Shown here piece by piece: positions 1,214-47,752 of a DNA stretch of 64,000 bases. A program made the position numbers and the translations under genes. Positions within the stretch are counted from its first letter, which is position 1. Each line of letters starts with the position of its first letter. This DNA is from Heterodontus francisci (Eukaryota): positions 96,976,352 to 97,040,351 of the forward strand of contig NC_090382.1 in NCBI RefSeq assembly GCF_036365525.1, written 5' to 3'. A model generated the notes under the pieces. That model did no database searches. It was not told where the DNA came from and saw only the letters and a program-made list of their open reading frames with translations.

Positions 1214-1219
1214 TTTATT
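1214..1219 (-). terminator. Candidate polyadenylation signal of the SPCS3-like gene
   Basis: AATAAA on the minus strand about 110 nt after the stop codon, followed by T-rich sequence. Confidence 0.5.
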
Positions 1220-1327: not shown

Positions 1328-1460
1328 TCAATAACTTTTGAATTCTTCATATTTTTCAGGTAATGGAATTACTTTCTGATGAGAGGCAGGCATCAGATGC
1401 AAGATTCCAGCATTTGGAACAATATTCCACGAAAGGGACAAGGATACATTCTTATTTCCT
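1328..1460 (-). CDS. SPCS3: SPCS3-like, coding exon 5 (terminal)
   Basis: cccag|(K)GNKNVSLSLSWNIVPNAGILHLMPASHQKVIPLPEKYEEFKSY*; total CDS 534 nt = 177 aa + TGA. Confidence 0.95.
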
Positions 1461-1789
1461 CTGGGGGAGGGGTGGGGGGAAGAAAGTTTAAAAAAAATGT
1501 TAATGGCAACTGCAATAATGGCATAGTTCAATTCACAATCATCTGACAATTCCAGAATCATGGTATTGACAATGCGACTGTTAAGATTCATATTAGGATA
1601 TGTAGAATATCCCCCTCTGGTTTGCTCTGATCTGGAGAAGGGAAGTACTCTTCCTGCACCACGGAGCGATGCTTATTGGTCCATCGCAGTTTTTAGAATA
1701 AACCTTTTCAACAAATGAAATTACACTGATGGAGTAGAAGGGATAGAGGACTATCAAGTATATGTCACAAAAACGTTGGTGTTACTTCT

Positions 1790-2075
1790 GCACTCCTCCA
1801 ATTCTAGCCTCTCGCACATCCCCAATTTTAATTACTCCACTATTAGTGGTGCTGCCTAGGTCCTAAACTCTGTAGTTCTCGCCCTAAACTCTCCTACTCT
1901 CTACCCTCCTTTAAGACGCTCCTTAAAACCTATATTTCTGGCCAAGCTTTTGGTCACTTATCCTAATTTTTCCTTACATGGCTTAGTGCCAATCTATTTT
2001 GATAACCCTCCTGTGAAGCAACTTGTAACGTTTTATGATGTTAAGGGCACAGTATAAATGCAAGTTATTGTTATA
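1790..2075 (+). mobile_element. L2-like LINE 3' end
   Basis: Tail ...ccttaaaacc...cctgtgaagc...ataaatgcaagttattgtt recurs at about 15300-15460, 30630-30855, 34185-34545, 52295-52850 (-) and 62930-63135. Confidence 0.7.
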
Positions 2076-3654
2076 GGTCACAATTCCCACACAGTAATTT
2101 CTCAATCATGAATGAAGCTTAGACAGGAAGCTGTTAAAATTTAGTAGCCCCCACTACCCGCAACACACTCCATCCGTTTGCACAATAACAAGATAGACTG
2201 CACTGTCATGCCCACATCTCTTATGGACTTAATTGGTCAGTGTGCCACAGGATTAAGTTACCCTTTAAGTGAATTATTTTGCACTGGATGTCCACGACAA
2301 ATTCCTGATCACTTAAATATGCAGAAAAAAATATCACGCTGACAGCCCATATTATTCAGGCAAGAAATTATAAGAAATAATAACACAGAAGCAAGATAAA
2401 CTACCAGATAAACAAAAACACTGCAGATAAGCTGCAACTGTACTGAAGCCATAGTAATTTGCACCACTGACTCTATACTCCTTGTTTTCCTCCAAAATAA
2501 AAATTTGCATTTGTATAGCAACTTTAATGTAGAAAAATGTTTCAAGTTGCTTCGCAGAAGTATAATCAGACAAAAATTGACATTGTACCAGAGAAAACAT
2601 AAGGTGGTGGAGAAAGGTGACTAAAAACTTATTCACATCGGCTGCTTTTAAGCAGAGTCTTAAGAGAGGTACGTGGTGGGGTTTCGGAAGGCAATTCCAG
2701 AGCTCAGGGCTGAGATGGTTGAAGGAATGGCTGCCAATGATGAAGGTATTTCATGAACACAAGGGGCCAGAACTTAAGGAATGCCAAGTTCTCAAAGGAT
2801 TTTAGAGATTGACAAGCTTACAGAGATAGAAAGTGGTGATGCCATGAAGGGATTTGATCACAAGGGTGAGAATTTTTAATTTGAGACATTGGAAAACCAG
2901 GAACCAATGTAGATCAATGAGTACAGGAGATTCTATTTGAAGTGGTCTTTGCAGGTTAGAGCAGAGTTTTGGAAGAGCTGAAGTTTATGGAGAGTGGAGG
3001 ATGCAAGCCCAACCAGGGGAGCATTGGATTGGTTGAGTCTGGAGGTGAGAAAGGCATGCATGAAGGATTTCGCAGCAAATGGGCTGAAGCAGGGACGGAA
3101 ACACACAATTTTGAAGGTAAAAGTAGGTGTTTTTTGTGATGGAGAGAGAGGATATGGGGTCAGAAGCTCATATCAGAGTCAAAAAGGATGCGGCAGTCGC
3201 TAACAGTCTGGTTCAATTTGAGACAATAGCTGGTTAAGGAGTTGAAATCAGTGGCAAGAATATGAGATTTGTGGCATGGGCTGAAAGATGATGGCTTTGG
3301 TTTTCCCAATGTTTAACTGCAGGAAACTGTGACTCATCCAGGACTGAATGTCAGACAACACAAAAGCAGTCGAGAGAAGTGGTGGAGAGATAGTGCTGGG
3401 TGTCGACGGTGTACATGTGGAAGCAGAGCCCAGGTTTTCAAATGATGTCACCGAGGGACAGTATGTAGATGAAGAACTGGACCTAAGGAGGGGCACTTCA
3501 GAGGTAATGATGCAGAAAGAAAAGCTATTGCTGGAAATTCTCTGGCTATAGTTGCAGAGTTAAGAGTGGAACCAAGTGAGAATAGTCTCACTGAGCTGGG
3601 CAACAAAGGAGAGGTGTTGGAGATGATGTGATCATCTGTCTCAAAGCCTTTAGA

Positions 3655-6600
3655 GAGAACATAAGAAATAGGAGCAGGAGTAGGCCATTCAGTCCCTCAA
3701 GCTTGCCCCGCCATTCAATAAGATCATGGCTGATCTGTCCCAGGCCTCAACTCCTCTTTCGGGCCTGCTCTGCATAACCCTCAACTCCCCGAGATTTCAA
3801 AAATCCATCTACCTCCTCCTTAAATACATTTAGTGACCTAGCCTCCACAACTCTCTGAGGTAGAGAATTCCAGAGATTCACCACCCTCTGAGAGAAGAAA
3901 TTCCTTCGCATGACAGTGTTAAATGTGTGACCCCTTATTCTGTAACTATGTCCCGTAGTTCGAGATTCACCCACCAGTGAAAACATATTCTCTACCCTGT
4001 CAAGCCCCCTTAGAATCTTATATGTTTCAATAAGATCACCTCTCATTCTTCTAAACTCCAATGAATAAAGGCCTAACCTGTTCAGCCGTTCTTGATAGAC
4101 AACCCCTTCATCCCAGGAATCAGCCTAGTAACCTTTTCTAAACTGCCTCCAATGCTAGTATATCCTTCCTTAAATACGTGAACCAAAACTGTATGCAGTA
4201 CTCCAGGTGTGGCCTCACCAACACCCTGTACAGTTGTAACAAGACTTCCCTATTTTTAAACTCTAACCCCCTAGCAATAAAGGCCAAAATTTCTTTTGCC
4301 TTCCTCATTACTTGCTGCACCTGCATGCTAACTTTTTGTGTTTCATGCACAAGAACACCCAGATCCCTCTGTGCTGCAGTATTTTGTAGTCTTTCTCCAT
4401 CTAACTAACAATCTGCCTTTTTATTCTTCCTACCAAAGTGGATGACCTCACACTTTCCCACATTGAACTCCATTTGCCAAGTTTTTGCCCACTCACTTAA
4501 CCTATCTATATCCCTTTGCAGATTCTTTGTGTCCTCATCACAACATGCCTTCCCACCTATTTTTGTATTGTCAGCAAATTTGGATACACTACACTCTGTC
4601 CCTTCCTCCAAATCATTAATATAGATCGCAAATAGTTGAGGCTCTAGGACCGATCCTTGTGGCACTCCACTAGTTAGGGCTTTCCAACCTGAAAAAGACC
4701 CATTAGTCCCGACTCTCTGCCTTCTGTGTGTAAGCCAGTCCTCAATCCATGCCGACACATTACCCCCAATACCGAGCTCTTATTTTGGGTAATAACCTTT
4801 TATGTGGCACCTTATCAAACGCCTTCTGAAAATCCAAATAAACTACATCTACAGGTTTCTCTTTATCCACTCTGCTTGTTATATCCTCAAAGAACTCTAA
4901 CAAATTTGTCAAACATGATTTCCCTTTCATAAAACCATGTTGACTCTGTTTGATTGCATCATGTTTTTATAAATGTCCTGCTATTTCTTCCTTAATAAAG
5001 GACTCTAGCATTTTCCCAATGACAGATGTTCAGCTAACTGTTTTGTTTAGTTTAGTTTAGATACAGCACTGAAACAGGCCCTTCGGCCCACCGAGTCTGT
5101 GCCGACCATCAACCACCCACTTATAATAATCCTACACTAATCCCATATTCCTACCACATCCCCACCTGTCCCTATATTTCCCTACCACCTACCTACACTA
5201 GGGGCAATTGCTAATGGCCAATTTACCTATCAACCTGCAAGTCTTTGGCATGTGGGAGGAAACCGGAGCACCCGGAGGAAACCCACGCAAACACAGGGAG
5301 AACTTGCAAACTCCACACAGGCAGTACCCAGAATTGAACCCGGATCACTGGAGCTGTGAGGCTGCGGTGCTAACCACTGCGCCGCCCACTGTGTAACTGG
5401 TCTATAGGTTCCTGCTTTCTGTCTCCCTCCTTTCTTGAATAGGGGCGTCACATTAGCGGTTTTTCAATCACTGGCACCCTACCGGAATCCAGTGAGTTTT
5501 GGTATATTACGACCAATGCCTCTACTATCTCTGCAACCACTTCTTTTAAAACCCTTGGATGCAGGCCATCAGGTCCTGGCGACTTGTCTGTCTTTAGTCC
5601 CATCAGTTTGTCAAGCACTTTTTCCCTCGTGAGAGAGATTGTTATAAGTTCCTCCCTCACATTTACACCTTGCTCATTTATTATTGTTGGGATGTTTATA
5701 GTGTCCTCCACCGTGAAGACCGATGCAAAATATTGGTTTCAGTTATCTGCCATTTCCCTATTCCCTGTTACTAATTCCCCAGTCTCATCCTCTAAGGGTC
5801 CCACATTTACTTTAGCTACTCTCTTCCTTTTTATATACCCGTAGAAGCTCTTACTGTTTGTTTTTATATTTCTTGCCAATTTGCTCTCATGATTAATTTT
5901 CTCCCTCTTTATTAGTTTTTCAGTCATCCGCTGCTGGTTTCTTAAAAAATCCCAATCTTCTGGCCTACCACTAGTTTACACCGCTTTGTATGCCTTTGTT
6001 TTTGATTTGATACTCTCCTTAACTTCCTTAGTTATCCACGGGTCATTCATCGTTCTCATCGAGTCCTTCCTTCTGACCAGAATAAATGTTTGCTGAGTTT
6101 TATTAAATATCTGCTTAAAGGTCTGCCACTGCTCATTGACTGACTTTCCTTTTAGTCTATTTTCCCAGCCCGCTTCAGACAACCCTTTCTTTATACCTCT
6201 GTAATAGCTCTTGTTTAAGTTAAGGACACTGGTTTGAGACCCGAGTTGCTCAGCCTCAAACTGAACTTGAAATGCTACCATGTTATGATTGCTTCCCCCT
6301 ACAGGATCCTTAATTACGAGATCCCTTATTAATCCTACCTCATTACACATGACCAAATCTAAAATAGCCTGTTCCCAGGTAGGTTCTGTAACATATTGTT
6401 CTAAAAAGCAATCCCTAATGCACTCTACAAATTCGTCTTCCACGTTACCCTTGCCAATTTGATTTAACCAGTCTATATGCAGATTAAAATCACCCATGAT
6501 AATTGTAGTGCCCTTCTTACATGCCTCCATCATTTCCTGATTAATACTTTGTCCTACAGAGAGGCAACTTCTCGGGGGCCTATAGATCACTGCCACCCGT

Positions 6601-6860
6601 GATTTCTTTCCCTTGCTATTCCTTATTTCCACCCAAACTGATTCTACATCACGATCTATTACACCTATATCATTACTCACAACTGCACTGATCCCTTCCT
6701 TTAATAACAAAGCTCCCCACCTCCTTTTCCTTTCTGCTTATTCTTCCGGAACGTCGAATATACTTGAACATTGGGTTTCCAGTCCTGGTCATCCTGCAAC
6801 CACGTCTCTGTGATAGCTATCAAATCATATTCATTTGTTTCTATTTATTCCGTCAGCTCA
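3655..6860 (-). mobile_element. CR1 LINE, most of ORF2 (APE endonuclease + RT), frameshifted
   Basis: ORFs 5976-6710 (VIYRPP, IIMGDFN, ILDLV), 5448-5711 (KSPGPDGLHPRVLKE), 4405-4758 ([14 protein letters not shown]), 3747-4061 (RRMRGDLIETYKI). Confidence 0.95.
5041..5393 (-). mobile_element. HE1-type V-SINE inserted in the CR1
   Basis: tRNA-like head GGCGCAGTGGTTAGCACC...GGTTCAATTC, V-domain core GTGGGTTTCCTCCGGGTGCTCCGGTTTCCTCCCAC, CR1-like tail with (CTAAA)n; TAACTG duplicated at 5035-5040 and 5394-5399. Confidence 0.9.
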
Positions 6861-8093
6861 TTAGAGGTTATTGTGATAGTGCACCACAGTCAGAGGATGC
6901 CATTTGTGACTTTGATTAGGGCTGATTCAGTGCTGTAGCAGGACAGAAACCTAATTGGAGAGATTCAAATATGGAGTTGAGGGAAAGACAGACACAGATT
7001 TGGTTAGTTACATTACGTTCAAGCATTTGAGAAGATTGAAAATAGGATGCTAATTTGCAATGCCAGACAGGTCAAGGATAGGTTTCTTCAGGAGGGATAA
7101 TGACTGCAGTTTTGAAAAGTGTGCCTAAGAAGAGAGAAAACAATTTAAAATGTCAGCTAGCAATGGACCAGGAAGAGAAGTTGGGTGATCGGCAGTTTTG
7201 TGGAAATAGAGTCAAAAGAGCAGGAGATGGATCTCATGGACAAGTTGAGCTCAGAGAGGGCACAGGGGAGATAGGAGAGAAAGTAGAGCAAGATGCTATT
7301 ACTTGACATTTCTCCATATTAAATTGCTTCTTCCACCTGATTTCCCATTTCTCCAATCTGTTTACATTGTCCTGAAGTGCTTTATTGCCCTCCTACTTCT
7401 GTGTCACCCGCAAATTTTGATGCATCCCTATTCTCAAGTCCAAATAATCAACTGTGTACAAAATGGATCCAGAACCAATCCTTGGGGTACATCACTTCCC
7501 TTCTCCAATCCAAGCAGCACAGTTTAACCCAAATTCTTTGTTTCCTGTCCATCAACCTACATTCTATCTATGCTGCTTTGTTTTTCCTATCCTATAAACT
7601 GGATTTTTTTTAAACAAGCCTCCCATTTTCCCTTATCCATTGGCCTCTAAAAATCCATAGACACCACATCTTCTTTACTGACATAACTTCAAAAACTCTA
7701 TTAAATTTACCAAAAGCTACTCAGATTTAGCAAATGCATGCTGGTTTTTCTTTACTATTCCAAGCATTTATAAATTCCCACTAATTTCACCTCGAATTAT
7801 GAATTTTAAGAGTTTGCCTATGACAATCATTCAATGAACTGATCTACAGTTACCAGTTTATACTACTCAAACAACTATTTCAGAATAACTTCCAGACACT
7901 GGAGCTTATAGCTTAAGAGTATTAAAAAGTCTTATTTTATTGAAGATCGTGATTGATGCAAGATGCCAACCCTCCAAAACATTGAGTTCTACAGCAGCAA
8001 AATGCAGTTAACGAACAAAAAAGGTTCACCAACAACCTTTTCACATTCTCTTCCCATTTTCTTGGGAGAATTGTACAAATATTTTTCACTTAC

Positions 8094-8209
8094 TTCAGAC
8101 CATTTCCATCATCCAAGAATAAATATTTAGGACTCATATCATGAAGATTAAGTCTAGGATTCTCTCCTCGCTGAAGGATTTTATCCCATAGAACCACTTG
8201 ATTCAATGT
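8094..8209 (-). CDS. SPCS3: SPCS3-like, coding exon 4
   Basis: catag|[38 protein letters not shown](K)|GTAAGT; 116 nt. Confidence 0.95.
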
Positions 8210-8508
8210 CTATGTTGTAAGTTAACACAGAACAAAAACATAAGAGGAATGATCAAATTTCAAAAAATTAATAAAAATTTCAAGGCAGCACTATACCATG
8301 AAGGTAAATGTTACTAAAAGGCAAAGAATAAAGCAGTAAGATACTGCTGTGCTATATTACAAAAGAATCAGGTTACTGAAAAGATCGAACATAGTACTGA
8401 AGCAAATAATGCATGAAGGCCAGAATATGTAAACAGCACATCCTAATAGATGTATTTTAGGCAATCTGTATAGCATCAATGCACCACACCTATGCACAAT
8501 CAACTTAC

Positions 8509-8585
8509 ATTGTTCTCTGTAGTATATTCTGCTGCTAGATACAGGAAAAGCTGCTTAACATTCCAGTTAAATACAGGGCCCAGAT
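8509..8585 (-). CDS. SPCS3: SPCS3-like, coding exon 3
   Basis: (D)LGPVFNWNVKQLFLYLAAEYTTENN contains the family hallmark WNVKQLFLYL; preceded by an AC acceptor, ends AAT|GTAAGT; 77 nt. Confidence 0.95.
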
Positions 8586-8739
8586 GTAGATAAATAGTTA
8601 AAGGAAATATGGGTTCTGGATAAATTCATACAATAGAAGCCCTGCACTACAATGAGAGCTTTGACAGAATGCAATTCATCAAATGAGAATCATAAAATGC
8701 CCTCATAATATCATCCTTTCCAGACTGTGTTCTGTCTTT

Positions 8740-9600
8740 CCTTTTCTTGGGCCTATCTATCTAGGCCCCCACCTGCCAAGAATGAGGCACATCAATTTTG
8801 TCATGAACATTGATTTTTAACTGTTGTTGGAGTGAGGAAATGACTTGTTAAACGGATCTTCCATGGCTGGAAAAAAACATTTACATACTAACAGACATCG
8901 AAGGTGAGGAAGCGCATTCCAGGGCCTGCTAAGGAGGATACAATCCACCAGGGCCAAGACTGGTTATACCAGCTGGTCACATGATTAACTGGCTGTTCCA
9001 GGGTTTCTTTTGAACTAGCCCCAGAGGGTTTGAACTCAGAAAGACTGTTTGCTCCTGGACTGAGAAGATCTTTCCTGTCTGCTCCCACCTCTTTCTCACA
9101 AGCCTCTGAATCCACTGAAGACACATGAACCCCAAGAGAGAAAAGTCTCCTCTAGCAAACAAGGTTTAAGAAGAATACTAGGCCCCAACAAAAAGCAAGA
9201 TCTACCTACAATCAAGAACTCTACAGTGAGCTCGAAGAACCATACCAAAGACTCTTCATATATTGCCTCAAATTTTTCCACTTTATTTTTCTTCAGTTCT
9301 TTTCTGTCTCTATTTGCATGTGTATACTATGTATGCATGCTAGCGTGGGCATGTCATGCATCCATAGGCATCAACCTAATTAGAGTTTAACTTCAAGTTT
9401 AATAAATTTCAACTTTTCCTCTTGAAACCGAAGAAAACCTGTTTGTGCTGGTTTCTTTGCCTTATAATTGGAAAGCGGTGAACAAGGATTCACCAAGGGG
9501 GAGCTAAAAACACGGTGTGTTTAAAATTAAACCCTGTTATGGTAAGACCAGGTGAAGGCTGAGAGGGATCCCTGGACACCTTTCTCACATAGTCTTAACA
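8740..9600 (+). mobile_element. Probable partial solo LTR inside the U12 intron
   Basis: Non-coding block with internal AATAAA (9401) ending ...GTCTTAACA like an LTR 3' terminus; matching 5' terminus and TSD not found. Confidence 0.45.
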
Positions 9601-9744
9601 CATGTTTCTGTCAAAACAACTGCTCAGGTGCACAAGAGCAGCCAAGGATGACTGTTGCAGTGATCTACTCTCAAGGAAGACAGAGAACAAGCAGAAAATG
9701 GGATAACAAAAAAGATATTAGAGAATTTGAAAAGGTTAAGGGAA

Positions 9745-10065
9745 TTTGGTGGTGAAGGGGGCTAGATACTGCTCTTTCTACTTCTTGCACCTTGATTCAA
9801 AGCCCACCCAAACCTCTCTTCTGTCTGCTGACCGTAAGGGCCTTACGTGAAGCCAGTTTGGGCATTCTAAATTTGATCTCCGATTTGTTTTGCAGCCAAA
9901 AATCAACCATTATTCAGCATTAAATACTGCTAAATTTACATTACCAATCCAAAATCACATGGAATGGCTGGAGTGTGAAAGGAAAAACATTACACTGGTG
10001 CATTAAGGGATGTTCTTGAGTTTGGGCTGAGGTATGCGGTATGGACAGCTTCACTGTGCACCTAT
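9745..10065 (+). mobile_element. Degenerate LF-SINE-like element
   Basis: Colinear patches resembling the LF-SINE consensus as recalled (GGCCTTACGTGAAGCCAGTTTGGG, GGGCTGAGG...AGCTTCACTG); related to the reverse copy at 35495-35890. Confidence 0.4.
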
Positions 10066-10985
10066 GTTAATTCAATGAGGGAGTGGTAAATCTATGGAAC
10101 TGGCTCTCTAGGAATATAGTGGAAGAAAATTGTATTGAATCATTCAATATGATTAAATGCAAATGAGTTACATTTCTTTCAGAAAATATTTTGGGGTACA
10201 GTATGAATAATTTGACATGGTAAATGTAACATGCTTGGGAAGAACAGGTGACTTTGGACCTTTGATTCCCAAAGATTTCCACAGTTGGGGGTTTCTTCAC
10301 CTCACCGAATCATAGAGCACAAGATGAGGTCATTTGGTTCACTGTGTTTGTGCCGCATCTTTAAGGACCAATCCAATTAATCCCACTCCACTATTGTTTT
10401 GCATTAGGTCTGCAATTTTCTCTTTTTCAGCTAATTCCTTTTGAAAGATGCTATTGAATCTGTTTCCACAACCTTTTCAAGTAGTGCATTCCACATCCTA
10501 ACAAACTGCTGCATTACAAAATGTCTCCTCATTGCTCCTCTGGATTTTTTTGGTCATTTTATCTGTTTCTTCTGGTTACTGACCCTCCTGCTAGTGGAAA
10601 CAGTTTTTTTTTTGCCCTGGTTAGCCTTTGATTTTTTTTTTCCTTCTTTAATATTTTTCACAGGAGATATAAGACTGATGGTGGGCAGGTGGATATTGAT
10701 GCTTCACATGTTGCAGGTTGTGCGAGGCAGACTCGATGGAACAGCCGGTCTTTTGCGATTTTGTATGTTTCTATGTCGGGGTCTGTTGTAGACTAATTGC
10801 CATGATTAGACAGCATCATCATTATTGTGGTACAATGTGACTAACAGGATGGTAGAAGGCAAACTCAATGGACCGTAGTCTTTTTCATCTGGCCGTTCAT
10901 TACCTAACCTGGGATTCCCGGAAATGGAAAGTGTCAAATCCTCATCTTGATGAGCATAACAGTGAATCAAGCACAAAAAGGATAT

Positions 10986-11050
10986 CAACATAGACACTAA
11001 AATTTACTGATCCTAAATCATAGTTTCCAGTATAGTCTTCGTATTTTTTT
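10986..11050 (-). CDS. SPCS3: SPCS3-like, coding exon 2
   Basis: tttctatttcag|A AAA AAA TAC... gives KKYEDYTGNYDLGSVNFSVYV(D); 65 nt; followed by U12 donor ATATCCTTT; phases match both neighbouring exons. Confidence 0.9.
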
Positions 11051-11807
11051 CTGAAATAGAAACAAAAAAGTACTCCAAAACACAAACAACACTCTACCTT
11101 TTCCCCTCCCCCCAGCACTATGCTCTTATATTCTTTACATTTAAAGCAGATGAAGCTTTAATTTACCATTTCACACACTTGAAGCATTTTTTTTTATACT
11201 GTGAAAGATATACAATCCAGAAAATCTTACTTTAGGGGTGAAAAACCGGTTAGCCTATCACTACCTAGGCAATGTTCTAGTATACACCCATTACAGTTTA
11301 AATACAGAAAAGGCAACAGGAATGTTTTTAAAAGTGAGAAGTTATTCAGCCATTTTGCAGAATTTTCCAGGGTGAAGAGGCTTTAGGATTTGTGCTAGTG
11401 TTGTACTTCTTTGCACTTGTGGCAAAGAGACAAACAGCGTGCACCACACACTGGTAGCTGCTACAGATACTTTCATACTATAATAAGAGTTATTTTCACT
11501 GCTGTGAAATATCATTGGTACTCACAATGTGAATACAAGATAGGTGTTGGCTGGTAGGGAGCCACTAGGTAGTAATTCAATCAGTTCTGATATTATAAAC
11601 TGCGATAGCAAAGCTCATGTAATACCTTGCTTAAATTGACACCTGGTGCTGTAATCCGGGCTCACCAATCAAATCCGTGCAGCGGCATCGTTCATGCATG
11701 ATGACGTTCACACTGAAAAGAGTAACAATTGTGTCGTCATTACTGTACGGATTCCAAGGGAATTTTTTGCCACACAGTATGTAAAAGTAATGGGTGTATA
11801 TTTAAAG

Positions 11808-12962
11808 CATAGAGTCGTACAGCATAGAAACAGGCCCTTCGGCCCACCGCGTCCATGCCGACCATAATGCCTATCTATATTTATCCCACCTGCCTGCATT
11901 AATTCCATATCCCTCTATGCCTTGCTCAATTAAGCACCTGTCCAGATGCCTCTTAAATGTCGCTACTGTTCCTGCCTCCACACCTCCTCAGGCAGCTCAT
12001 TCCAGATACCCACTATTCTTTGTGTGAAAAATTTACCCCTTTGATCCCCTTTAAAGCTCCTCCCTCTCACCTTAAATCTATGCCCTCTAGTTTTAGTCAC
12101 CCCTACCATAGGAAACAGACTCTGGCTATCTACCCTATCTATGCTTCTCATAATTTTATATACCTCTATCATGTCTCCTCTCAGCCTCCTTCACTCCAGG
12201 GAAAACAGACCCAACCTATCCAATCTCTCTTTATAACTCAAGCCCTCCAAACCAGGCAACATCCTTGTGAATCTTTTCTGCACCCTCTCTAGCTTAATCA
12301 CATCTTTCCTGTAGTGCGGTGACCAGAACTGCACACAGTACTCCAAAAGCGGCCTAACCAACATTATGTACAACTGTAACATGACGTCCCAACTCTTGGA
12401 CTCAGTGCCTCGGCCGATGAAGGCAAGCATGCCATACGCCTTCTTCACCACCCTGTCTACCTGAGTTGCCACTTTCAGGGAGCTATGTACTTGCACCCCA
12501 AGGTCTCTCTGCTCAACAACACTCCCCAGGGCCCTGCCATTCACTGTATATGTCCTGGCCTGGTTTAACTTCCCAAAATGCATCACTTCACACTTGTCTG
12601 CATTAAATTCCATTTGCCACTCCCTTGCTCACTTTCCCAGTTGAGCTATATCCTGTTGTAACCTTAGACAACCTTCTTCACTGTCCACTATACCACCAAT
12701 TTTGGTGTCATCTGCAAACTTACTAATCATGCCCCTTACATACACATCCAAGTCATTAATATATATGACAAACAACAGGGCCCAGCACCGATCCCTGTGG
12801 CACACCACTGGTCACTGGCCTCCAATCTGAAAAACAACCCTCCACTACCAACCTCTGCCTCCAATCACCAAGCCAATTTTGTATCCAATTTGCTAGCTCA
12901 CCCTGGATCCCATGTGTTCGAACCTTCTGGACCAGCCTACCATGCGGGACCTTGTCAAAGGC
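11808..12962 (-). mobile_element. CR1 LINE 3' fragment (RT C-terminus + tail)
   Basis: ORF 12191-12613 MEFNADKCEVMHFG...LVRPLLEYCVQFWSPHYRKD; tail GGGCCGAAGGGCCTGTTTC. Confidence 0.93.
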
Positions 12963-13914
12963 CTAAGTTTATAAATTCTTACGATTTACAGAGTTTATGA
13001 AGTTTGCACATATAGAAACAGTATATTGGGGAAAAAACATGAGTAAAATATTTCATACACCTGAACGAGCATAAATTTCCTTTTCTATTCCATTCTTGCT
13101 AGCGGAACAAGTCATTATGATGATCCAAAATTACAACAAAATGTCTTCTGGCAACCAGTTTTGAAGCATAGTGTGTCATTCTCTAAATTATCTTTTTTAT
13201 AATATTTGAAATTATGGACCAATTGAGTAAAATATACTGCAAAATAAGAGGATTAAAGGATCAGGTGACAAGAAGGAGCATAGCCAGTTAATATGAATAG
13301 AAAACAAGAATACTCATGAATAAAACACAAGAACACCAAGACTGAAATACATCGAAGAAGCTAGGTTCAGGGGAAAATACTTTCAAGTATTTCCCTTTGT
13401 AGTCAGGGAACAATACTAATTTCTTAAACTTCCTAGTTTGTACTATTCTCCAGCAACATCAATGAACCCAACACGGAGGTGCTCGGTTAATATCAATCAC
13501 AAACACTGCTCCCATCTGCTCCAAACACTTCAGCAATGATTGGAAATACTCAGCAGGTCTGACAGTATCTGTGGGGAAAGAAATAGAGTTAATGTTTCAG
13601 GTTGATGACCTTGCATCAGAACTCAGCAATGATTAGCACCTTTTTCAATCCTGGATGCTGATTGATGGGCTGGAAAACCCAGTACATCAAAATAGGAAAA
13701 GATTTGAAAAAATGGTCTGGTTTTCCCAAAATGCACTAAACTGAAAGTTATGTACCGACTGCCAAGTATAATATGAATCATTATAATGAAAAACTAAGAC
13801 AACATTACGCAAAACCTCTCTCCGCAGATGCTGCCAGACCTGCTGAGTTTTTCCAGCACTTTTTGTTTTTGTTTCAGATTTCCAGCATCTTCAGTATTTT
13901 GCTTTTATTATTAA

Positions 13915-14790
13915 GCAAAAGAGGATAGCTGTAGACTCCAGAATAATATCAATGCTTTGGTTGAGTGGGCGGAAAAGTGGCAAATGGAATTCAATCCAGA
14001 GATGTGTGAGGTAATGCATTTGGGGAGGGCAAACAAAGCAAGGGAATACACAATAGAAGGGAGGATACTGAGGGGTAGAAGAAGTAAGACACCTTGGAGT
14101 GCATGTCCACAGGTCCCTGAAGGTGGCATGACAGGTAGATAGAGTGGTTAAGGCGGCATATGGAATGCTTTCCTTTATTGGCCGAGGTATAGAATACAAA
14201 AGCAGGGATGTAATGCTGGAACTGTATAAAACGCTGGTTAGGCCACAGCTGGAGTATTGCGTACAGTTCTGGTCACCACGTTACAGGAAGGACATAATTG
14301 CTCTGGAGAGAGTACAGAAGAGATTTACAAGAATGTTGCCAAGACTCGAAAGTTGCAGCTATGAGGAAAGATTGGATCGGCTAGGGTTGTTTTCTTTATA
14401 ACAGAGGAGTCTGAGGGGTGACTTAATTGAGGTGTACTAAATTATAAGGGGCTGAGATAAGTAGACAGGAAGGACCTGTTTCCCCGAGCGGAGAGGTCAA
14501 TTATCAGAGGGCACAGATTTAAGGTGATTGGTAAAAGGAGTGGAGGGGACATGAGGAAAACCTTTTTCATCCAGAGGGTGGTGGGTGTCTGGATTTCACT
14601 GCCCGGATCGTTGGTGAAGGCAGAGACCCTCAACTCTTTAAAAAGGTAACTGGACATGCATCTGAAGTGCTGTAACCTGCAAGGCTACGGACCAGGTGCT
14701 GGAAAGTGGGATTAGATTGGGCGGCTAGTTTTTTCAGCCAGCGCAAACATGTCGGGCTGAATGGCCTCCTTCTGTGCCGTAACATTTCAA
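13915..14790 (+). mobile_element. CR1 LINE 3' fragment
   Basis: ORFs 13957-14142 and 14144-14401 (WAEKWQMEFNPE, LVRPQLEYCVQFWSP). Confidence 0.92.
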
Positions 14791-15689
14791 TGAATCTAAA
14801 AGCAAGGCCAGTGCGATAGTATTATTTAATAAAAAGTCCACACAGTCTGAAGCAATAGGTTAGCAATCAGTATTCTCCTCAGCACCAGCTCAGCTTCAAA
14901 TCCTACACTGATGCAATACCAAAGCCACCTAACTAAACATCACTTGCCTAGATTCCCACTGTGGGCAAAACCTTCATATGCACCTTTGTCACCTCAAAGT
15001 TTGATTTTACTTTTCCAACCTACAAAAAGTCCAATTCATCTAGAATTCTGTAGACTTCATCTTTTCCTATACAACCACCATCCACATCTTTCATCTCTAC
15101 TGGCTCCCTGTCCGTAGGCAGATCAATTTCAAAATTCCTCCACGGCCTTGCTCTATCTTACCTCTGCAATTTTCTCCAGCTCTACGTTCTATTACACACA
15201 CTCTGCTCTTCCAGCACTGGGTCACATGGCGCCTTGCCCTGTCTGCTGTTTCACCATGGGTGTTCAGCCACCATGTCCCTGAACTCTGCATCTCATGTCT
15301 CAAACTTCATTGCCTTGCCTGAACTCTCTTTATTCTCAAAATGTACCTTTTTGTGCTTCTGATCACTTATCATTTCACTCATACCTCCTGCTCAATGCCC
15401 GCTGCTTGTAAACTATCTTTGGTTACACAAACGGCACTAAATAAATATAACTTATTGCTGTAAATTTTCTTAAATATAATTAAAGAGTTATGCCACAATT
15501 TCTACTATCTGTCCCCAGTCAGAATAGTACTATAAATTGAGATATACATGAAAGGCAGTATGTAATTAATGACTGGAATATCAAAAAGTAACAAATTGTT
15601 AAAGATTGGGCTATCAGAGGGGACAAAATGAAGATAAAATAGATGAGAAAATAAGCCAGCTGAACAGGTGTTAATCAAAAAATACAGAT

Positions 15690-16225
15690 ACAATGCCCAG
15701 AAACAGGCCATCCCACTTCATCTAACTCTCTACCAGCATATCCTTCTATTTCTTTCTCCCTCATATGCTTACCTAGCTTCCCCTTCGCATCTATGCTATG
15801 TGCCTCAACTATTCCATTGGATAGCAAGTTCCACATTCTAACCACTCTCTGGGTAATGATATTTCTCCTGACTTCTTTATTGGAGTTATATTTATGGCCT
15901 CGGAGTTTTGGACTCCCCACAAATAGAAGCATCTTCTCTCCGTCTACCCTATCCTTCACAATTTTGAAGACCTACCTGCTTTAGGTCACCCCTCAGCCTT
16001 CTCTTTTCCAGAGAACAGTGACAGATAGCAAAAGAACAAAATGGATTTCAGGTGAAAGTTTTGAACAGTGAAATGTGCTGTATCTTGGTATACTGGGTGC
16101 ATGGATCTGGAATAAGAAAAAGAGCGTATTTGGGGATCTGAATCTTAAGGGGAGAGAAAGAGGGAGGTATACAGTTGGGAGGTCTGAGAACAGTGCCCCA
16201 GCCTTTTCCTGATAACTGTCAATTG
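15690..16225 (-). mobile_element. Decayed CR1 3' fragment, interrupted at 16021-16185 by a templated insertion
   Basis: ORF 15675-15959 (TQRVVRMWNLL); CR1 sequence resumes after the duplicated GAGAACAGTG. Confidence 0.75.
16021..16185 (+). repeat. Composite inverted duplication of 17600-17695 and 16637-16682, flanked by a 10-bp direct repeat
   Basis: 16023-16118 = reverse complement of 17600-17695 (2 mismatches); 16123-16168 = reverse complement of 16637-16682 (2 mismatches); GAGAACAGTG at 16011-16020 and 16186-16195. Confidence 0.92.
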
Positions 16226-16348
16226 TGTTAGGTTATAACTAAGAGCCATGGCCAAGTTTCCACCGTCTACACAGAGTAAATAAGTGCACCCACAAGGTGA
16301 TCACTCATGATCCCTCGGCCCCTCCCCTGTTGCAGCTCCCACACTCAC

Positions 16349-16491
16349 AGAGAGACGCCGCTCACACGGATGCTGACTGGTACCCGGGCCTGCTGGAATA
16401 CTGTACTCAGGAACACCAGGAAGGTCAGCGCCGCCATCACCATCAGCGTGAAGGCAAACAGCGAGTTGAACCGCGACATCAGATTGTTCAT
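16349..16491 (-). CDS. SPCS3: SPCS3-like (signal peptidase complex subunit 3, SPC22/23 family), coding exon 1
   Basis: ATG at 16491; MNNLMSRFNSLFAFTLMVMAALTFLVFLSTVFQQARVPVSIRVSGVS(L) aligns to the SPCS3 N-terminus and signal anchor; 143 nt, ends CT|GTGAGT (phase 2). Probably a divergent paralog, see findings. Confidence 0.93.
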
Positions 16492-17984
16492 CTTCCCTGT
16501 AGTGACGAGGTCTGCATCCGGCCCCAGCACACAAACACTCCGGCTCAACCGCTGCAACTCGAAATAAAGGTTCCCAGCCCCCTCCTTGCCCCCGTATCTC
16601 TGAAGTTTTGTCTTGCACCTACCTGCTCGATCACAGACCTCCCTCTTTCCCTCCCCTTAACATTCAGATCCCCAAATACGCTAATGACATTTTATGAAAC
16701 TCCTTATTAACGTACCAGCAAGCCAGTAATGACATTCATTTTGGATGGGGTGCATTCTAGAAAGCCTGTTTTCCAGCAAAGAAAAGGAGTGAGATGTGAT
16801 CAACAAAAATGACAAATTACAAACACATTTAAACATCTGTAACTGTTATTTTTTCCAGGGTACACACATAAGCACAATACAATAGGTTATAAGTGTGAAT
16901 TAAAATGAATGACACTGGACATGAGCAAGGCTTAACAGATCAGTCACTATTATTGCTGCAAGATAATAGTTAATGCAACAAAACACTCAGTCCAGTGATT
17001 CAGATACATTCCAAGTATAATTCCTGAGATTTCAGTCAGGCATACAATGAATAGAATCAATGAATAACTAGTGTGTGATATTCGATCTGTCAAAAAGCAT
17101 ACGCTAGCCTGAATCAAACCTTGCGCGGTTTGTGACAAGATCAGCAGTGCAAATGTAAAAGCAGGTCTGCCACTTGTGTCCAAGACAAAGCTGCAAATGT
17201 GAAGACTTTAAAAGTAAAAGGGTTACACAATTGACCCTGAAAAAAATTGATCAGTTTGAAGTAGTCTTCCATTGCTCACTTGAGGTTAATAGAATGTCTC
17301 TCAACAACTGAGATGCTTGAGTACAGCATTTAAGCTGATTTTACATGGTTAAAAAATACCTTAAAGACATCCAAAGTAGCATTTGCATCTAACTTCTTTC
17401 GAACTGATCTCTCATCAGTAATCTTAGCTGGACATATACATATATGGAATTGCATGGCAACAGTGCACCATAAATTTACCTTCCTCAACATGACGCAAGC
17501 AGCCAGTGATACATGATTTCCCCTTTGACTTGTAAAAATACAGCCAATATTACATCAGCAATTGCAGTTTAAAAATTAAAATATACTTTTTTCTAGCTCT
17601 TCTTATTCCAGATCCATGCACCCAGTATACCAAGATACAGCACATTTCACTGTTCAATACTTTCACCTGAACTCCATTTTGTTCTTTTGCTATCTAGCAA
17701 AAAGGGAAACATAATTACTGTGATATAGCCTATAGTTCCAAGATCACTTTATTTGTGATGTGGGTTCTGAACTCTACTGCACCCCACCACCCCACCCCAC
17801 CCCACCCCAACCCTTCCATAGGAAGCATAAGAAAAAGATTTTAAAAAGTCTTCATAGTGATATATCAACACCATTTTTTTTTAACGAATAGATGAGACGA
17901 TTCAGGACACTTGAAAGGCAAGGATATAATTCCTGACCATGGATGGAAATGGAGATCAGAGGTCAGGGAAAAGTTTCTCGCATA

Positions 17985-19213: not shown

Positions 19214-19389
19214 TCAGTTCCCTGACTCACAATCTTCGTTTGCACAGACAGATAGGTCAGATGGTAAATTTTTGGTTTCAGCAATGAGGCGTTTTACTCC
19301 GACCATCCACTGTCCCACTTCATTCACATGGTCAACCATCAAAGATCTGTGGATTTCATCAGCAGAATCCCAGTTGCAGTGCTCCATTT
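19214..19389 (-). CDS. SRA1: SRA1, coding exon 5 (terminal)
   Basis: acag|(E)[57 protein letters not shown]; strong match to the SRAP C-terminal domain. Confidence 0.95.
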
Positions 19390-20009
19390 CTGTCAAAAGA
19401 CAAACATATACCACACGTTCTTAGGATTTAAAGGATGTCATTAACGAAATGCTACTTGCAATATACAGGTGCGCTGGAAAAGCAGGGCGAGGGAGATGGG
19501 AGGCAAGAGGAGAAAAGGTTTAGTTCTGAGTAACCAATTCTGATTTAGTTCCTATATATCAAAAGCACCAAGCCTTTTATCTTTGTGATGCATAAGAAAG
19601 AGCCTCACAGACCAGATATAAAATTTAAAATCAATGTTCCCATTTATTTGCATTTCACTATCTGCTGGTGCTAAAAAAATCTTCATATTTGAACTTAGGA
19701 CTAAGCCATCAATTAGGTAACGACATTAAGATCCAGCCTTTTGAACGTACATATAAATTAGGAGGAGGCGGCCATTCGGCCCCTCGAGCCTGCTCCACCA
19801 TTTGATAAAATCATAGCTGATCTGAATGTGGCCTCAATTCCACTTTCCTGTCTGCCCCCCATAACACTTGACTTTCTTGAAAATGGAGAATCTACCTAAT
19901 TCAGCCTTGAACATATTCAATAACTCAGCCTCTACTGCTCTCTAAGGAAGCACATTCCACTGCCTGACGACCCTCAGGAAAATAATTCTCCTCATCTCCG
20001 TTTAGTGGC

Positions 20010-20928
20010 TCAGAAGTGGGGATGTTCGCTAACCATTGCACAATGTTCAGCACCATTCGCAACTCCTCAAATACTGAAGTAGTCCGCGTAAAAATGCAGC
20101 AAGACTTGGACAATATCCAGGCTTGGGCTGATAAGTGGCAAATAACATTCACGCCACACAAGTGCCGGGCAATGACCATGTCCAACAAGAGAGAATCTAA
20201 CCATCTCCCCTTGACAGTCAATGGCATTACCATCGCTGAATCCCCCACTATCAACATCCTAGGGACTACCATTGACCAGAAACTGAACTGGAGTAGCCAT
20301 ATAAATACCATGGCTACAAGAGCAGGTCAGAGGCTAGGAATCCTGTGATGAGTAACTCACCTCCTGACTCCCCAAAGCCTGTCCACCATCTACAAGGCAC
20401 AAGTCAGGAGTGTGATGGAATACTCTGCACTTGCCTGGATGGGTGCAGCTCCAACAACACTCAAGAAGCTCCTACACCATCCAGGACAAAGCAGGCCACT
20501 TGATTGGCACCCCATCCACAAACATTCACTCCCTCAATCATCGACGCACAGTGGCAGCAGTCTGTACCATCTACAAGATGCACTGCAGCAACACACCAAG
20601 ACTCCTGAGACAGCACCTTCCAAACCCGCGACGTCTACCAACTAGAAGGACAAGGGTAGCAAATGCATTGGAACAACATCACCTGCAAGTTCCCCTCCAA
20701 GTCACGCACCATCCTGACTTGGAACTATATCGCCATTCCTTCACTGTCGCTGGGTCAAAATCCTAGAACTTCCCTTCCCAACAGCACTGTTGGTGTACCT
20801 ACCCCACATGGACTGCAGCGGTTCAAGAAGGCAGCTCACCACCACTTTCTCAAGGGCAATTAGGGATGGGCAATAAATGCTAGCCTGGCCAGCGACACCC
20901 ACATCCCATGAATGAATAAAAAAAAAGA
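20010..20928 (+). mobile_element. Second CR1/L2-group LINE family, 3' fragment, nested in a CR1 remnant
   Basis: RT peptides QQDLDNIQAWADKWQITF and YKAQVRSVMEYS; tail GGGCAATAAATGC...CCCACATCCCATGAATGAATAAAA. Other copies at 23875-24066 (-), 41775-42965 (+), 54405-55100 (-) and 62440-63880 (-). Confidence 0.85.
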
Positions 20929-21328
20929 AAATGGGAGCCCCCTTATTTTTAAACTGTGTCCCCCAGTTCTAGTATCACCCCTAAGTGGATACATCCTTCC
21001 AGCATCCACCCTGTCAAGTCCCCTCAAGATCTTAAAAGCAAAATACTGCTGATGCTGGAAATCTGAAATAAAAACAGAAAGTACTGGAATTACTCAGCAG
21101 GTCAGGAACATCCGTGGAGAGAAGCATAGTTAATGCTTCAGGTCTGTGACCTTTCATCAGAATGAGCAAAGGTTAGAAAAGAATTAGGTTTTTAGCCAGT
21201 GACAGGGAGGGGGGGAGCGGGTTTGGTGGGGACTAGAACAAAAGGGATTCTCCTAAAGAGCTCTCATTTTACAATGGATTTGCTTGATAATTAAGTTTCT
21301 TTCTATGTTTGAATAAACAAATCAATTA

Positions 21329-22027
21329 GGCTGCGTTTGCTGACAATACTACCACTAGGTGGCGCTGCAGTGGCACTTGCGTAAATGCAGCATGTGCCAC
21401 TAAAACATCACAGTCTGCGACTTCAGGCAGCTGCCAGGACTAAAGATGGCGCTGCTCAATCACACGAAGGCAAACACATGGCAGCATACAATGGCGGGAG
21501 GGAGAGAAAGAGCGGCCGGGGCCGTGGGGGTGAGGAATCGCAGCGGGCAAGGGTGGGGGGAGCGGAGCAGTCTAGGGGCGGGCAAGCGAGCGGAGCGGCC
21601 GGAGAGAGCAGCAAGGTGGGGGGGGGAGCGAAGCAGCCGGAGAGAGCAGCGAGGGGGGGGAGCAGAGCGGCCATAAGAGCGGAGCGGCCAGAGAGAGCAG
21701 CAAGGGGGGGGAGCAGTGCAGCCAGAGAGAGCAGCGGGCGGGAGGGGGCGGAGAGAGCAGCGAGGGGGGAAGCGGAGCTTGACGCGTGGGTGAATACCCT
21801 TTAGCGTTGCATTGATGTACGCGTAAAGAGCATGCACAGAGGCGGACCAGGCGCATTGCCCGAAGATGCACACATCATGTGATGACGTCATCGGCGCATG
21901 CGCTAACCAGTCCTGGTAACTCGGATTGCAGCGGACACACAGCGAGCAGGAGACCATCTGCGAATGCGTGCAACTTGGCACAGCCTGATGACGTTAGTGG
22001 CCGGCTGCGTTGTCAGGAATCACTTTG
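21329..22027 (+). mobile_element. GC/CpG-rich non-autonomous element, copy 1 (Zisupton-like architecture, tentative)
   Basis: Shares about 170 bp of left end and about 150 bp of right end with 46171-46807; termini GGCTGCGTTTGCTGACAA ... TTGTCAGGAATCACTTTG; centre is a GGAGCGGCCGGAGAGAGCAGC-type tandem repeat. Confidence 0.8.
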
Positions 22028-22279
22028 TTTCTAATACACAGGATAATGCAACTTAGGGGCTTCAAACATTAGAATCTATAAAGTTAAAGCTTGAGCAGTT
22101 TATCAATCCCAAACTTAACTACTACCTCAGAAATAAGTTTTGCGGTATATAAATGATAAATCATAATTCTACCTTATTACATAACCTTCAGTTCAGATTT
22201 CAATGGCATTTCAATTGAATTGAATCTTCTGCTGTGGAATTGTTGAATTTACAGGGCAATTTAATGGCTTTCTGTGGTA

Positions 22280-23150
22280 AGCTGTGGGGAGGACACAGAG
22301 AGGTTGCAAAGAGATACAGACAGGTTAAGTGAGTGGGCAACAAGATGACAAATGGAGTAAAATGTAAGGAAGTGTGAAATTATTCACTTTGGTCATAAGA
22401 ATAGAAAAGCAGAATATTTTTTAAAACGTGTGAAACTTTTAAGTGTTGATATTCAAAGAGACTTGGGGTGCTTTTACAAGGAACACAGAAAATTAGCATG
22501 CAGGTACAGTAAGAAATTAGGAAGGCAAATGGCATGTTGTCTTTATTTCAAAGGGATTGGAGTACAGGAATAAAGAAGTTTTGCCACAATTTTACAGGGT
22601 TTTGATGAGACATCTGGAGTATTGTATCCAGTTTTAGTCCCCACATTTAAGAAAGGATATACTGGCATTGGAGGCGGTACAGGAAAGATTCACTAAATTG
22701 GTCCCTGGGACGAGGGAGCTGACCTATGATGAGAGGTTGAGTAAATTGGGCCTATACTCTCTGGAGTTTCGAAGAATGAGAGGCAATCTTATTGAAACAT
22801 ACAAGATTTTGAGGTGGCTGCGTAGGGTCGACGAGAGATTGTTTCCGCTGGTTGGAGAATCTAAAACACAGGGCCACAGTCTCAAGATAAGGGGCCAATG
22901 ATTTAGGACCGAGATGAGGAGAAATTACTTCACTCAACGGCTTGTGAATCTTTGAAATTCTCTACCCTAGAGGGTTGTGGATGCTCAATCGTTGAATACA
23001 GTTAAGGCTGGGATAGACAGATTGTTGTTCTCTCAAGGAATCAAGGGATATGGCGATTTGGCGGAAGAGTGAGTTGAAGCCTAAGATCAGCCAGGATTGT
23101 ACTGAATGGTGAAGCAAGATCGATGGGCCATATGGCCTACTCCTTTTTCT
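22280..23150 (+). mobile_element. CR1 LINE 3' fragment
   Basis: ORF 22668-22901 (LEFRRMRGNLIETYKIL) plus CR1 tail. Confidence 0.9.
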
Positions 23151-24201: not shown

Positions 24202-24310
24202 CTTGTGTGAGCAGGTACATCCTCTTTCGCACTGATACAGATAGCTTTCCAGATTGCCACATGTCCTGCAGTATTATTAGCCGTCTGCCAATATCATCAC
24301 AAACCTGTTT
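24202..24310 (-). CDS. SRA1: SRA1, coding exon 4
   Basis: ccag|[36 protein letters not shown](E)|GTAATC. Confidence 0.95.
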
Positions 24311-47605: not shown

Positions 47606-47752
47606 CATGGACACTATCGTGAAACTTTATACACACACACTCGCTCAGAACAAACATCGTCCACGAAAGCCGCGATGAACGCTGGTGATAATATCCATTA
47701 GCAATAACTATTTAAATTTCTGATCTGTATTTGTGAAGTGACAACACCTTAC

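What the first reader, a model, noticed from the sequence alone, without database searches (positions are those of the whole stretch)
1328..16491. Intact but divergent SPCS3 gene in an unexpected neighbourhood: candidate second signal-peptidase subunit paralog
Seen: five exons splice into an uninterrupted 177-aa ORF with consistent phases, a retained minor intron and a poly(A) signal, so this is not a retrocopy or obvious pseudogene. By hand alignment to human SPCS3 recalled from memory it is only about 60% identical and has a 3-aa deletion in exon 2. Knowledge: vertebrate SPCS3 orthologs are normally much more conserved and single-copy. Human SPCS3 lies on 4q, while the neighbours here (SRA1, NUDCD2, LARS1) lie on 5q, and 4q/5q are known 2R paralogons. 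Inference: this may be an ohnolog retained in cartilaginous fish. That would allow a second signal peptidase complex defined by its SPC22/23 subunit, in addition to the known SEC11A/SEC11C variants.
Basis: partly seen in the sequence, partly recalled or inferred. Interest (0 to 1): 0.78.

Follow-up and report, generated by a model that had tools for sequence, protein, structure and literature searches.

The report
Second signal peptidase subunit in sharks
Many sharks and rays keep a second, intact and spliced copy of SPCS3, a scaffold subunit of the enzyme that clips signal peptides off secreted proteins; it is likely a leftover of an early vertebrate genome doubling and would give them an alternative form of that enzyme.

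Summary
Confirmed. Five exons give an intact 177-aa SPC22/23 protein with an AT-AC intron; three of four introns are joined exactly in contigs from two studies. The genome holds a second, ordinary SPCS3 on C4 with the same intron positions; the two are 59% identical. The divergent copy occurs in 17 shark, ray and skate species and in no chimaera or bony vertebrate among the listed hits. Its neighbourhood (SPCS3-like, VEGFC-like, teneurin on C12) repeats the order and orientation of SPCS3, VEGFC, teneurin on C4, and the neighbouring VEGFC-like gene groups with teleost proteins. Best reading: an ohnolog from the jawed-vertebrate genome doubling. The SPCS3 tree favours this but does not reject a chondrichthyan-stem duplication (AU p 0.14-0.17). 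It evolves about 4 times faster than SPCS3 yet keeps the fold, 53 of 57 core residues and the N-glycan site (60, 103). No SEC11C exon was found in this genome, so this shark may vary the complex through SPCS3 rather than SEC11. Incorporation into the complex is untested.

The parts
16349..16491 (-). SPCS3-like coding exon 1 (start codon, N-terminal transmembrane helix)
   Evidence: joint 11050/16349 in 4 of 4 runs; helix 4-31
10986..11050 (-). coding exon 2, 65 nt (74 nt in the C4 gene): 3-codon deletion at the tip of the first beta hairpin
8586..10985 (-). intron 2, AT-AC minor-spliceosome type, shared in position and type with the C4 gene
   Evidence: joint skipping 2400 nt in 3 of 4 runs
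8509..8585 (-). coding exon 3
8094..8209 (-). coding exon 4
   Evidence: joint skipping 299 nt in 3 of 4 runs
1328..1460 (-). coding exon 5 with stop; carries the conserved N-glycosylation sequon (N138, human N141)
   Evidence: stretch 1150-1460 held in part by 10 listed runs of 3 studies
1214..1219 (-). AATAAA, candidate poly(A) signal
   Evidence: sequence; use not tested
16492..16602 (-). 5' UTR (at least this long), in a CpG-enriched stretch (o/e 0.64 against 0.33 for the window); holds a short upstream ORF (16517-16488) whose stop overlaps the main start
   Evidence: (X3 record 15)
11625..11712 (-). minor alternative exon in intron 1, similar to the insert of annotated short isoforms in two lamniform sharks; out of frame here
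   Evidence: one contig starts at 11712 (X5 record 26)
19217..26207 (-). neighbour SRA1 (three coding stretches), ending about 2.7 kb upstream of the SPCS3-like start
40745..40933 (-). neighbour NUDCD2, first coding exon
54066..54176 (+). neighbour LARS1, an N-terminal exon

Best explanation
This is an intact, spliced second SPCS3 (SPC22/23) gene of sharks, rays and skates, likely an ohnolog from the whole-genome duplication at the base of jawed vertebrates, whose product is predicted to replace ordinary SPCS3 as the luminal scaffold around the catalytic SEC11A subunit. Shown: intact gene, splicing, a separate ordinary SPCS3 locus, mirrored gene order on two chromosomes, conservation across elasmobranchs, and a 4-fold faster rate. 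Inferred: the copy sits on the gene-poor, fast-evolving beta partner chromosome, was lost in bony vertebrates (and apparently the chimaera), and was kept under relaxed purifying selection. Predicted mechanism: it inserts in the ER membrane by its N-terminal helix, is glycosylated at N138, and its beta sandwich embraces SEC11A through the conserved core. Fixed changes in the helix that helps frame the transmembrane window (G25L, C26V) and a shortened hairpin would tune the complex rather than abolish it.
For: Two intron-containing loci with identical intron positions, phases and the AT-AC intron. C4 order: SPCS3(+) 30.34-30.36 Mb, VEGFC(-) 30.67 Mb, teneurin(+) 36.8-37.15 Mb. C12 order: SPCS3-like(-) 96.98-96.99 Mb, VEGFC-like(+) 96.83 Mb, teneurin(-) 93.2-93.8 Mb, i.e. 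the same order and relative orientation. FNIP and SPARC/SPOCK families also pair C12 with another large chromosome, C1. SPCS3-like and VEGFC-like records share a contig length in 14 of 14 species where both were listed with one. The VEGFC-like clade includes the chimaera and groups with Albula and Umbra proteins (100/99); a chondrichthyan-only duplication of that neighbour is rejected, p-AU 0.0004. In SPCS3 trees the paralog clade (100/100) lies outside bony plus cartilaginous SPCS3 (96/88; 89/77). Two columns (T15, N76) keep the outgroup-majority residue in the paralog while jawed SPCS3 share a derived one, against 0 columns for either rival grouping. A duplication inside elasmobranchs is rejected, p-AU 0.003. 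Pairwise dS about 1.8 and dN 0.33 between the two loci (near saturation). 53 of 57 columns invariant in 39 other SPCS3 proteins are kept, against 42.5% identity elsewhere; the N141-equivalent sequon is kept in 14 of 14 paralogs. The model (pLDDT 87.9) has 7P2P chain B as its only match at E<=0.001 of 1267 listed, E=2e-16. Faster evolution of beta segments and 19 ohnologs kept only in chondrichthyans are reported in PMC10115646 (passages); its SI Table 3 lists the chicken chromosome 13 equivalent as a beta segment.
Against: The SPCS3 tree does not reject a duplication on the chondrichthyan stem (p-AU 0.141; 0.168), and the paralog's stem is long (0.61-0.68), so long-branch pull towards the outgroup is possible. 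No bony-vertebrate or chimaera copy was seen, so at least two losses are needed. The VEGFC tree had no full-length VEGFD, so the teleost rows could be misplaced, although in the shared exon they are 60% identical to VEGFC-like against 49-54% to the shark VEGFD. Which teneurin is TENM2 or TENM3, and the human map positions, are recalled rather than tested. Batoid copies are more eroded (40 of 49 to 47 of 57 core residues in stingray, manta and skate copies), and two of the 14 aligned records lack the first 16-18 residues. No record was listed for Rhincodon, Amblyraja, Hemitrygon or Narcine, although these have VEGFC-like records. Four core residues are changed (C26, P155, G161, F167). No protein-level or binding evidence exists.
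Confidence: 0.8

Rival explanations
1. A later DNA-level (segmental or transposed) duplication of SPCS3 on the chondrichthyan stem, followed by fast divergence, that came to lie beside VEGFC-like on C12.
For: Only elasmobranch copies were seen. The AU test does not reject grouping it with chondrichthyan SPCS3 (p 0.14-0.17).
Against: It would have to land next to the VEGFC paralog in the ancestral tail-to-tail arrangement with a teneurin beyond. The VEGFC-like neighbour appears to predate the bony/cartilaginous split. No column unites it with chondrichthyan SPCS3 alone. An elasmobranch-only origin is rejected.
Confidence: 0.1
2. An ancient ohnolog, but one whose protein has left the signal peptidase and taken another ER role, as proposed for the rodent Arxes retrogenes.
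For: 4.2-fold faster protein evolution than SPCS3 (28 of 28 species pairs), loss of the otherwise invariant transmembrane cysteine, a divergent C-terminal segment (32% identity over 156-177) and an extra sequon at N64 in 10 of 14 aligned paralogs. Arxes precedent: PMC3082915 (abstract and section 16).
Against: The most conserved segments (71-107 and 124-155; 75-78% identical to SPCS3, 85-87% among paralogs) are the family's invariant luminal core, and the fold and glycan site are kept.
Confidence: 0.2
3. A redundant copy in slow decay, transcribed but with little function.
For: Relaxed rate, eroded batoid copies, no record listed for several elasmobranchs, and an upstream ORF overlapping the start.
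Against: Open frames in records of 17 species spanning the shark-ray split; changes concentrated outside the core (53 of 57 core columns kept, 42.5% identity elsewhere); correct splicing including the minor intron.
Confidence: 0.07

Closest known systems
SPCS3 / SPC22/23, non-catalytic subunit of the ER signal peptidase complex (Pfam PF04573; PDB 7P2P chain B)
   Same: Same five-exon structure with AT-AC intron 2, same predicted fold (N-terminal helix plus luminal beta sandwich), same core motifs and glycan sequon.
   Different: Only 59-60% identical to shark and human SPCS3, whereas ordinary shark SPCS3 is 79-81% identical to mammal and bird copies and at least 90% identical across chondrichthyans tested. 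It has a 3-residue hairpin deletion and a more hydrophobic, cysteine-free transmembrane helix, and lies on the partner chromosome.
SPC-A / SPC-C paralogous complexes (SEC11A vs SEC11C; bioRxiv 10.1101/2020.11.11.378711, passages read)
   Same: Two versions of the complex from one duplicated subunit.
   Different: There the catalytic subunit is duplicated. Here the scaffold subunit is, and no SEC11C exon was found in this genome. Complex formation was shown there and is untested here.
Rodent Arxes1/Arxes2 (PMC3082915; abstract and section 16 read)
   Same: Functional extra SPCS3-derived genes in a vertebrate lineage.
   Different: Arxes are intronless retrocopies, 82% identical to Spcs3 and limited to glires. 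This gene keeps all four introns, is 59% identical and is far older.
Ohnologs kept in chondrichthyans and lost in bony fishes (19 genes reported in PMC10115646; passages and SI file 2 seen)
   Same: Same pattern of retention, on a likely beta segment, with a faster rate.
   Different: SPCS3 is not named in the passages or the supplementary text that could be searched. The gene list itself was not in the table as held, so prior listing cannot be excluded.

Membership tests
SPC22/23 (SPCS3) family | Matches Pfam PF04573 and solved SPCS3 chains | tested here: met
   (E=8e-67 to 7P2P_B)
SPC22/23 (SPCS3) family | Single N-terminal transmembrane helix and luminal beta sandwich | tested here: met
   predicted model: helix 4-31 then nine strands, pLDDT 87.9; Foldseek TM 0.70 to 7P2P_B; hydropathy
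SPC22/23 (SPCS3) family | Invariant core residues and the N141 glycosylation sequon | tested here: met
   53 of 57 invariant columns kept; sequon in 14 of 14 paralogs; C26, P155, G161 and F167 changed
SPC22/23 (SPCS3) family | Assembles with SEC11, SPCS1 and SPCS2 | not tested
SPC22/23 (SPCS3) family | Supports signal-peptide cleavage | not testable with these tools
   needs a rescue or in vitro assay
Vertebrate WGD ohnolog | Lies in a paralogous block with co-duplicated neighbours | tested here: met
   SPCS3-VEGFC-teneurin order and orientation repeated on C4 and C12; linkage to VEGFC-like in 14 of 14 testable species
Vertebrate WGD ohnolog | DNA-level duplicate with shared introns | tested here: met
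   4 of 4 introns shared in position and type
Vertebrate WGD ohnolog | Duplication predates the bony/cartilaginous split | tested here: inconclusive
   best SPCS3 trees say yes but the alternative is not rejected (p 0.14-0.17); the neighbour VEGFC-like says yes (p 0.0004; no full-length VEGFD in the set)
Vertebrate WGD ohnolog | Duplication postdates the cyclostome split (second round rather than first) | tested here: inconclusive
   jawed clade 84/83, unstarred; open fork
Processed retrogene (Arxes type) | Intronless | tested here: not met
   four introns; the genome's intronless fragment is a different locus on C4, 97% identical to the ordinary gene

The most novel reading that the evidence does not exclude
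Elasmobranchs run two signal peptidase complexes that differ in the scaffold subunit, not the catalytic one. SEC11A pairs with either SPCS3 or SPCS3-like, SEC11C is absent, and the paralog's altered window-framing helix shifts which signal peptides are cleaved. This would mirror the mammalian SPC-A/SPC-C arrangement and give a natural variant for testing whether SPC22/23 sets substrate choice.
Probability: 0.3. Interest if true: 0.68.

Novelty: new member of a known kind. Interest (0 to 1): 0.46.

Why it matters
SPC22/23 is treated as the constant, essential partner of SEC11, and the known diversity of the human complex lies in SEC11A versus SEC11C, whose functional difference is described as unclear (bioRxiv 10.1101/2020.11.11.378711, passage read). 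An old, selected, 59%-identical SPC22/23 is a ready-made natural variant that shows which surfaces are dispensable and whether the scaffold subunit can alter substrate choice; a rescue experiment is simple. As a by-product, the linkage gives chromosomal context to the duplicated shark VEGFC gene. PMC10328876 called the origin of the duplicated holostean vegfc unknown and perhaps unknowable, and its preprint notes the shark duplicate (passages read). Retention of ohnologs in chondrichthyans is itself a known pattern, and the protein is already in databases under an automatic 'SPCS3-like' label, which limits the surprise.

Tried and rejected
Fast-evolving sole ortholog: rejected, because an ordinary SPCS3 exists on C4. 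Retrocopy or pseudogene: rejected. Search for non-elasmobranch members: one search found 851 hits and listed 120, of which the 11 top-scoring paralogs plus short isoforms were all elasmobranch; the 731 unlisted hits were not seen. One search listed 150 of 1491 representatives; of the 146 new ones, 5 scored best against the paralog, 2 clearly (both shark isoforms) and 3 marginally at low identity (not followed). This does not prove absence in chimaera or bony fish. SAP30 as a paralogon marker gave only a C4 locus, and the PLP/GPM6 family has no C12 copy. Pfam Peptidase_S24 and SPC12 searches of the genome found nothing and are uninformative; SPC25 gave one hit. No Rfam match in the window. No listed run is on record as RNA, so tissue and level of expression were not determined, and contig depths were not used. 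Codon dN/dS across species could not be run because only this genome's DNA was held. No complex prediction was run. Literature searches that found no description of this paralog, judged on listings only: spcs3+paralog+signal peptidase complex (17 papers, 15 listed), vegfc+spcs3+synteny (0), spcs3+shark, spcs3-like/spcs3l/spcs3b/SPC22 paralog (0), SEC11C+SEC11A+duplication+vertebrates+zebrafish (0). The supplement of PMC11979771 and file 1 of PMC10115646 could not be read, and file 2 was cut; they may list or profile the gene. Earlier-findings look-ups returned nothing.
Full report
Observation. The gene is as described. Five minus-strand exons (16349-16491, 10986-11050, 8509-8585, 8094-8209, 1328-1460) give 534 nt and a 177-aa protein without internal stops, identical to database record P0001, which its source labels 'signal peptidase complex subunit 3-like' of a horn shark. 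Intron 2 is AT-AC; the others are GT-AG. Identity to human SPCS3 in PDB 7P2P is 60%, with a 3-residue gap. SRA1, NUDCD2 and LARS1 are confirmed as neighbours.

Transcription. Contigs of public runs join the exons exactly: intron 1 in 4 of 4 runs laid, introns 2 and 3 in 3 of 4, from two studies and two coded organisms. The tool marks these runs as RNA by guess only, but joints that remove exactly the predicted introns, including the minor one, are what spliced RNA gives. The genome's one intronless SPCS3 fragment derives from the other gene (97% against 73%). Intron 4, tissue and level were not determined.

It is a paralog. A family search of the genome found three loci: the window, an intron-containing gene on C4 and an intronless fragment on C4. 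The C4 gene (30,336,690-30,363,762) encodes the 180-aa protein P0124, with the same four intron positions and the same AT-AC intron. It falls in a cluster of at least 90% identity that includes chimaera, sharks and rays, and is 79-81% identical to mammal and bird SPCS3. The window protein is 59% identical to it. Records of the divergent copy were listed for 17 elasmobranch species, covering galeomorph and squalomorph sharks, sawfish, skates, stingray and mantas. None was listed for chimaera, cyclostomes or bony vertebrates among the 120 of 851 hits shown or the 150 of 1491 representatives shown. Four annotated elasmobranchs with a VEGFC-like record (Rhincodon, Amblyraja, Hemitrygon, Narcine) had no listed copy; this may be loss or missing annotation.

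Origin from synteny. On C4 the order is SAP30-family 25.7 Mb, PLP/GPM6-family 29.4 Mb, SPCS3(+) 30.34 Mb, VEGFC(-) 30.67 Mb, teneurin(+) 36.8-37.15 Mb. On C12 it is SPCS3-like(-) 96.98 Mb, VEGFC-like(+) 96.83 Mb, teneurin(-) 93.2-93.8 Mb: the same three genes in the same order and relative orientation. The two FNIP genes and the SPARC/SPOCK genes pair C12 with C1. SPCS3-like and VEGFC-like records share a contig length in 14 of 14 species where both were listed with one; three species could not be tested. That the C12 genes map to human 5q31-35 and chicken 13, and the C4 and C1 genes to human 4q, is recalled knowledge. SI Table 3 of PMC10115646 lists the chicken 13 equivalent as a beta segment whose alpha partners are two large skate chromosomes, which fits a C12 versus C1/C4 split. 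That paper reports more loss and faster evolution on beta segments and 19 ohnologs kept only in chondrichthyans (passages).

Origin from trees. With 53 proteins, the 14 paralogs form a clade (100/100, stem 0.61) outside bony plus cartilaginous SPCS3 (96/88). With 22 rows (the fastest batoid paralogs and distant invertebrates left out) the best tree is cyclostomes, then paralog, then (cartilaginous, bony), with supports 84/83 and 89/77. A duplication within elasmobranchs is rejected (p-AU 0.003). A duplication on the chondrichthyan stem is not rejected (0.141 and 0.168). Two columns unite bony and cartilaginous SPCS3 against the paralog and the outgroups; none supports either rival grouping. 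The neighbour dates the block better. VEGFC-like exists in the chimaera beside ordinary VEGFC and groups with Albula and Umbra proteins (98/100 with 24 rows; 100/99 after dropping one long row and two single-exon rows), and holding it with chimaera VEGFC is rejected (p-AU 0.0004). No full-length VEGFD was in that set; in the shared exon the teleost proteins are closer to VEGFC-like (60%) than to shark VEGFD (49-54%) or VEGFC (52%).

Selection and anatomy. Across 8 matched species the paralog's mean protein distance is 0.258 against 0.061 for SPCS3, higher in 28 of 28 pairs. The change is not random. 53 of 57 columns invariant in 39 other SPCS3 proteins are kept, against 42.5% identity elsewhere. 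Segments 71-107 and 124-155 stay 75-78% identical to SPCS3, while 108-123 and 156-177 fall to 32-38%. The sequon equivalent to human N141 is kept in 14 of 14 paralogs. Between the two loci dS is about 1.8 and dN 0.33 (near saturation, a rough figure). The predicted model has a helix at 4-31 and nine strands (pLDDT 87.9), and matches only 7P2P chain B at E<=0.001. The deletion sits at the tip of the first hairpin. Fixed differences include G25L and C26V in the membrane helix (C26 is invariant in the 39 other rows) and F167L. Stingray, manta and skate copies are more eroded (40 of 49 to 47 of 57 core residues).

Mechanism. In the human structure SPC22/23 forms a beta sandwich that embraces the SEC11 catalytic core, is required for activity, and its helix helps frame the thinned-membrane window (bioRxiv 10.1101/2020.11.11.378711, passages). 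The signal peptide's direct contacts are mainly with SEC11A (PMC13385932, passages), so any effect of this paralog on selectivity would likely be indirect. The most likely function is an alternative scaffold subunit (inferred from the kept core; about 0.7 given a functional protein). A search with the catalytic exon found one intact SEC11A-type exon and one broken 88%-identical partial duplicate, both on C35, and no SEC11C among 5 candidates scored; an incomplete assembly or the search filter could hide it. If real, this shark would vary its complex through SPCS3 rather than SEC11. Binding was not tested.

What is known. The closest precedents are the SEC11A/C complexes and the rodent Arxes retrogenes (PMC3082915, abstract and section 16). 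Searches listed no paper describing this paralog. The skate paper's list of differentially kept ohnologs was not in the table as held, 'spcs3' had 0 hits in the searchable supplementary text, and the catshark supplement could not be read, so an earlier listing is not excluded. The duplicated shark VEGFC is noted in bioRxiv 10.1101/2022.09.19.507521 (passages); its published version has no occurrence of 'spcs3' in the main text.

Verdict. A real, expressed, conserved second SPCS3 of elasmobranchs, most likely an ohnolog (about 0.85 for a WGD origin, 0.8 for the whole reading). It is a new member of a known family in a known evolutionary pattern, with a testable twist about how the complex is varied. 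Interest 0.46.

Noticed in passing
G000:C12:96831252-96831431 (L017), about 145 kb outside the window: VEGFC-like gene tail-to-tail with the SPCS3 paralog. It groups with chimaera, Albula and Umbra proteins, suggesting a jawed-vertebrate VEGFC ohnolog also kept in some bony fishes. Whether teleost genes named vegfd include this ohnolog deserves a check with full-length VEGFD.
   Followed up: partly
G000:C35:38102920-38103084 (L027) and C35:41567516-41567713 (L028): Only one intact SEC11 catalytic exon (SEC11A type) was found, plus a broken partial duplicate 3.5 Mb away; no SEC11C exon.
   Followed up: partly
G000:C4:120286916-120287203 (L001): Intronless fragment 97% identical to the ordinary C4 SPCS3 coding sequence (nt 77-362): a recent truncated processed pseudogene.
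   Followed up: yes
window 11625-11712 (-): Stretch in intron 1 similar to the insert of short annotated isoforms in Cetorhinus and Carcharodon; out of frame here; one low-depth contig begins at its acceptor. Possibly a conserved unproductive exon.
   Followed up: partly
window 16517-16488 (-): Nine-codon upstream ORF whose stop codon overlaps the main start codon; conservation not checked.
   Followed up: no
window 16848-19391: The SRA1 3' region runs to within about 2 kb of the SPCS3-like start on the same strand, and one run has a contig over 16848-17770; read-through or a long 3' UTR is possible.
   Followed up: no
window 8700-9600: High-copy interspersed element inside the AT-AC intron (very high contig depth, sharp ends near 8761 and 9588), LTR-like.
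   Followed up: no
G000:C4:25688817-25701347 (L013, L014): Only one SAP30-family locus was found in the genome; none on C12.
   Followed up: no
window 42034-49412: Three reverse-transcriptase fragments (LINE-like) between NUDCD2 and LARS1.
   Followed up: no
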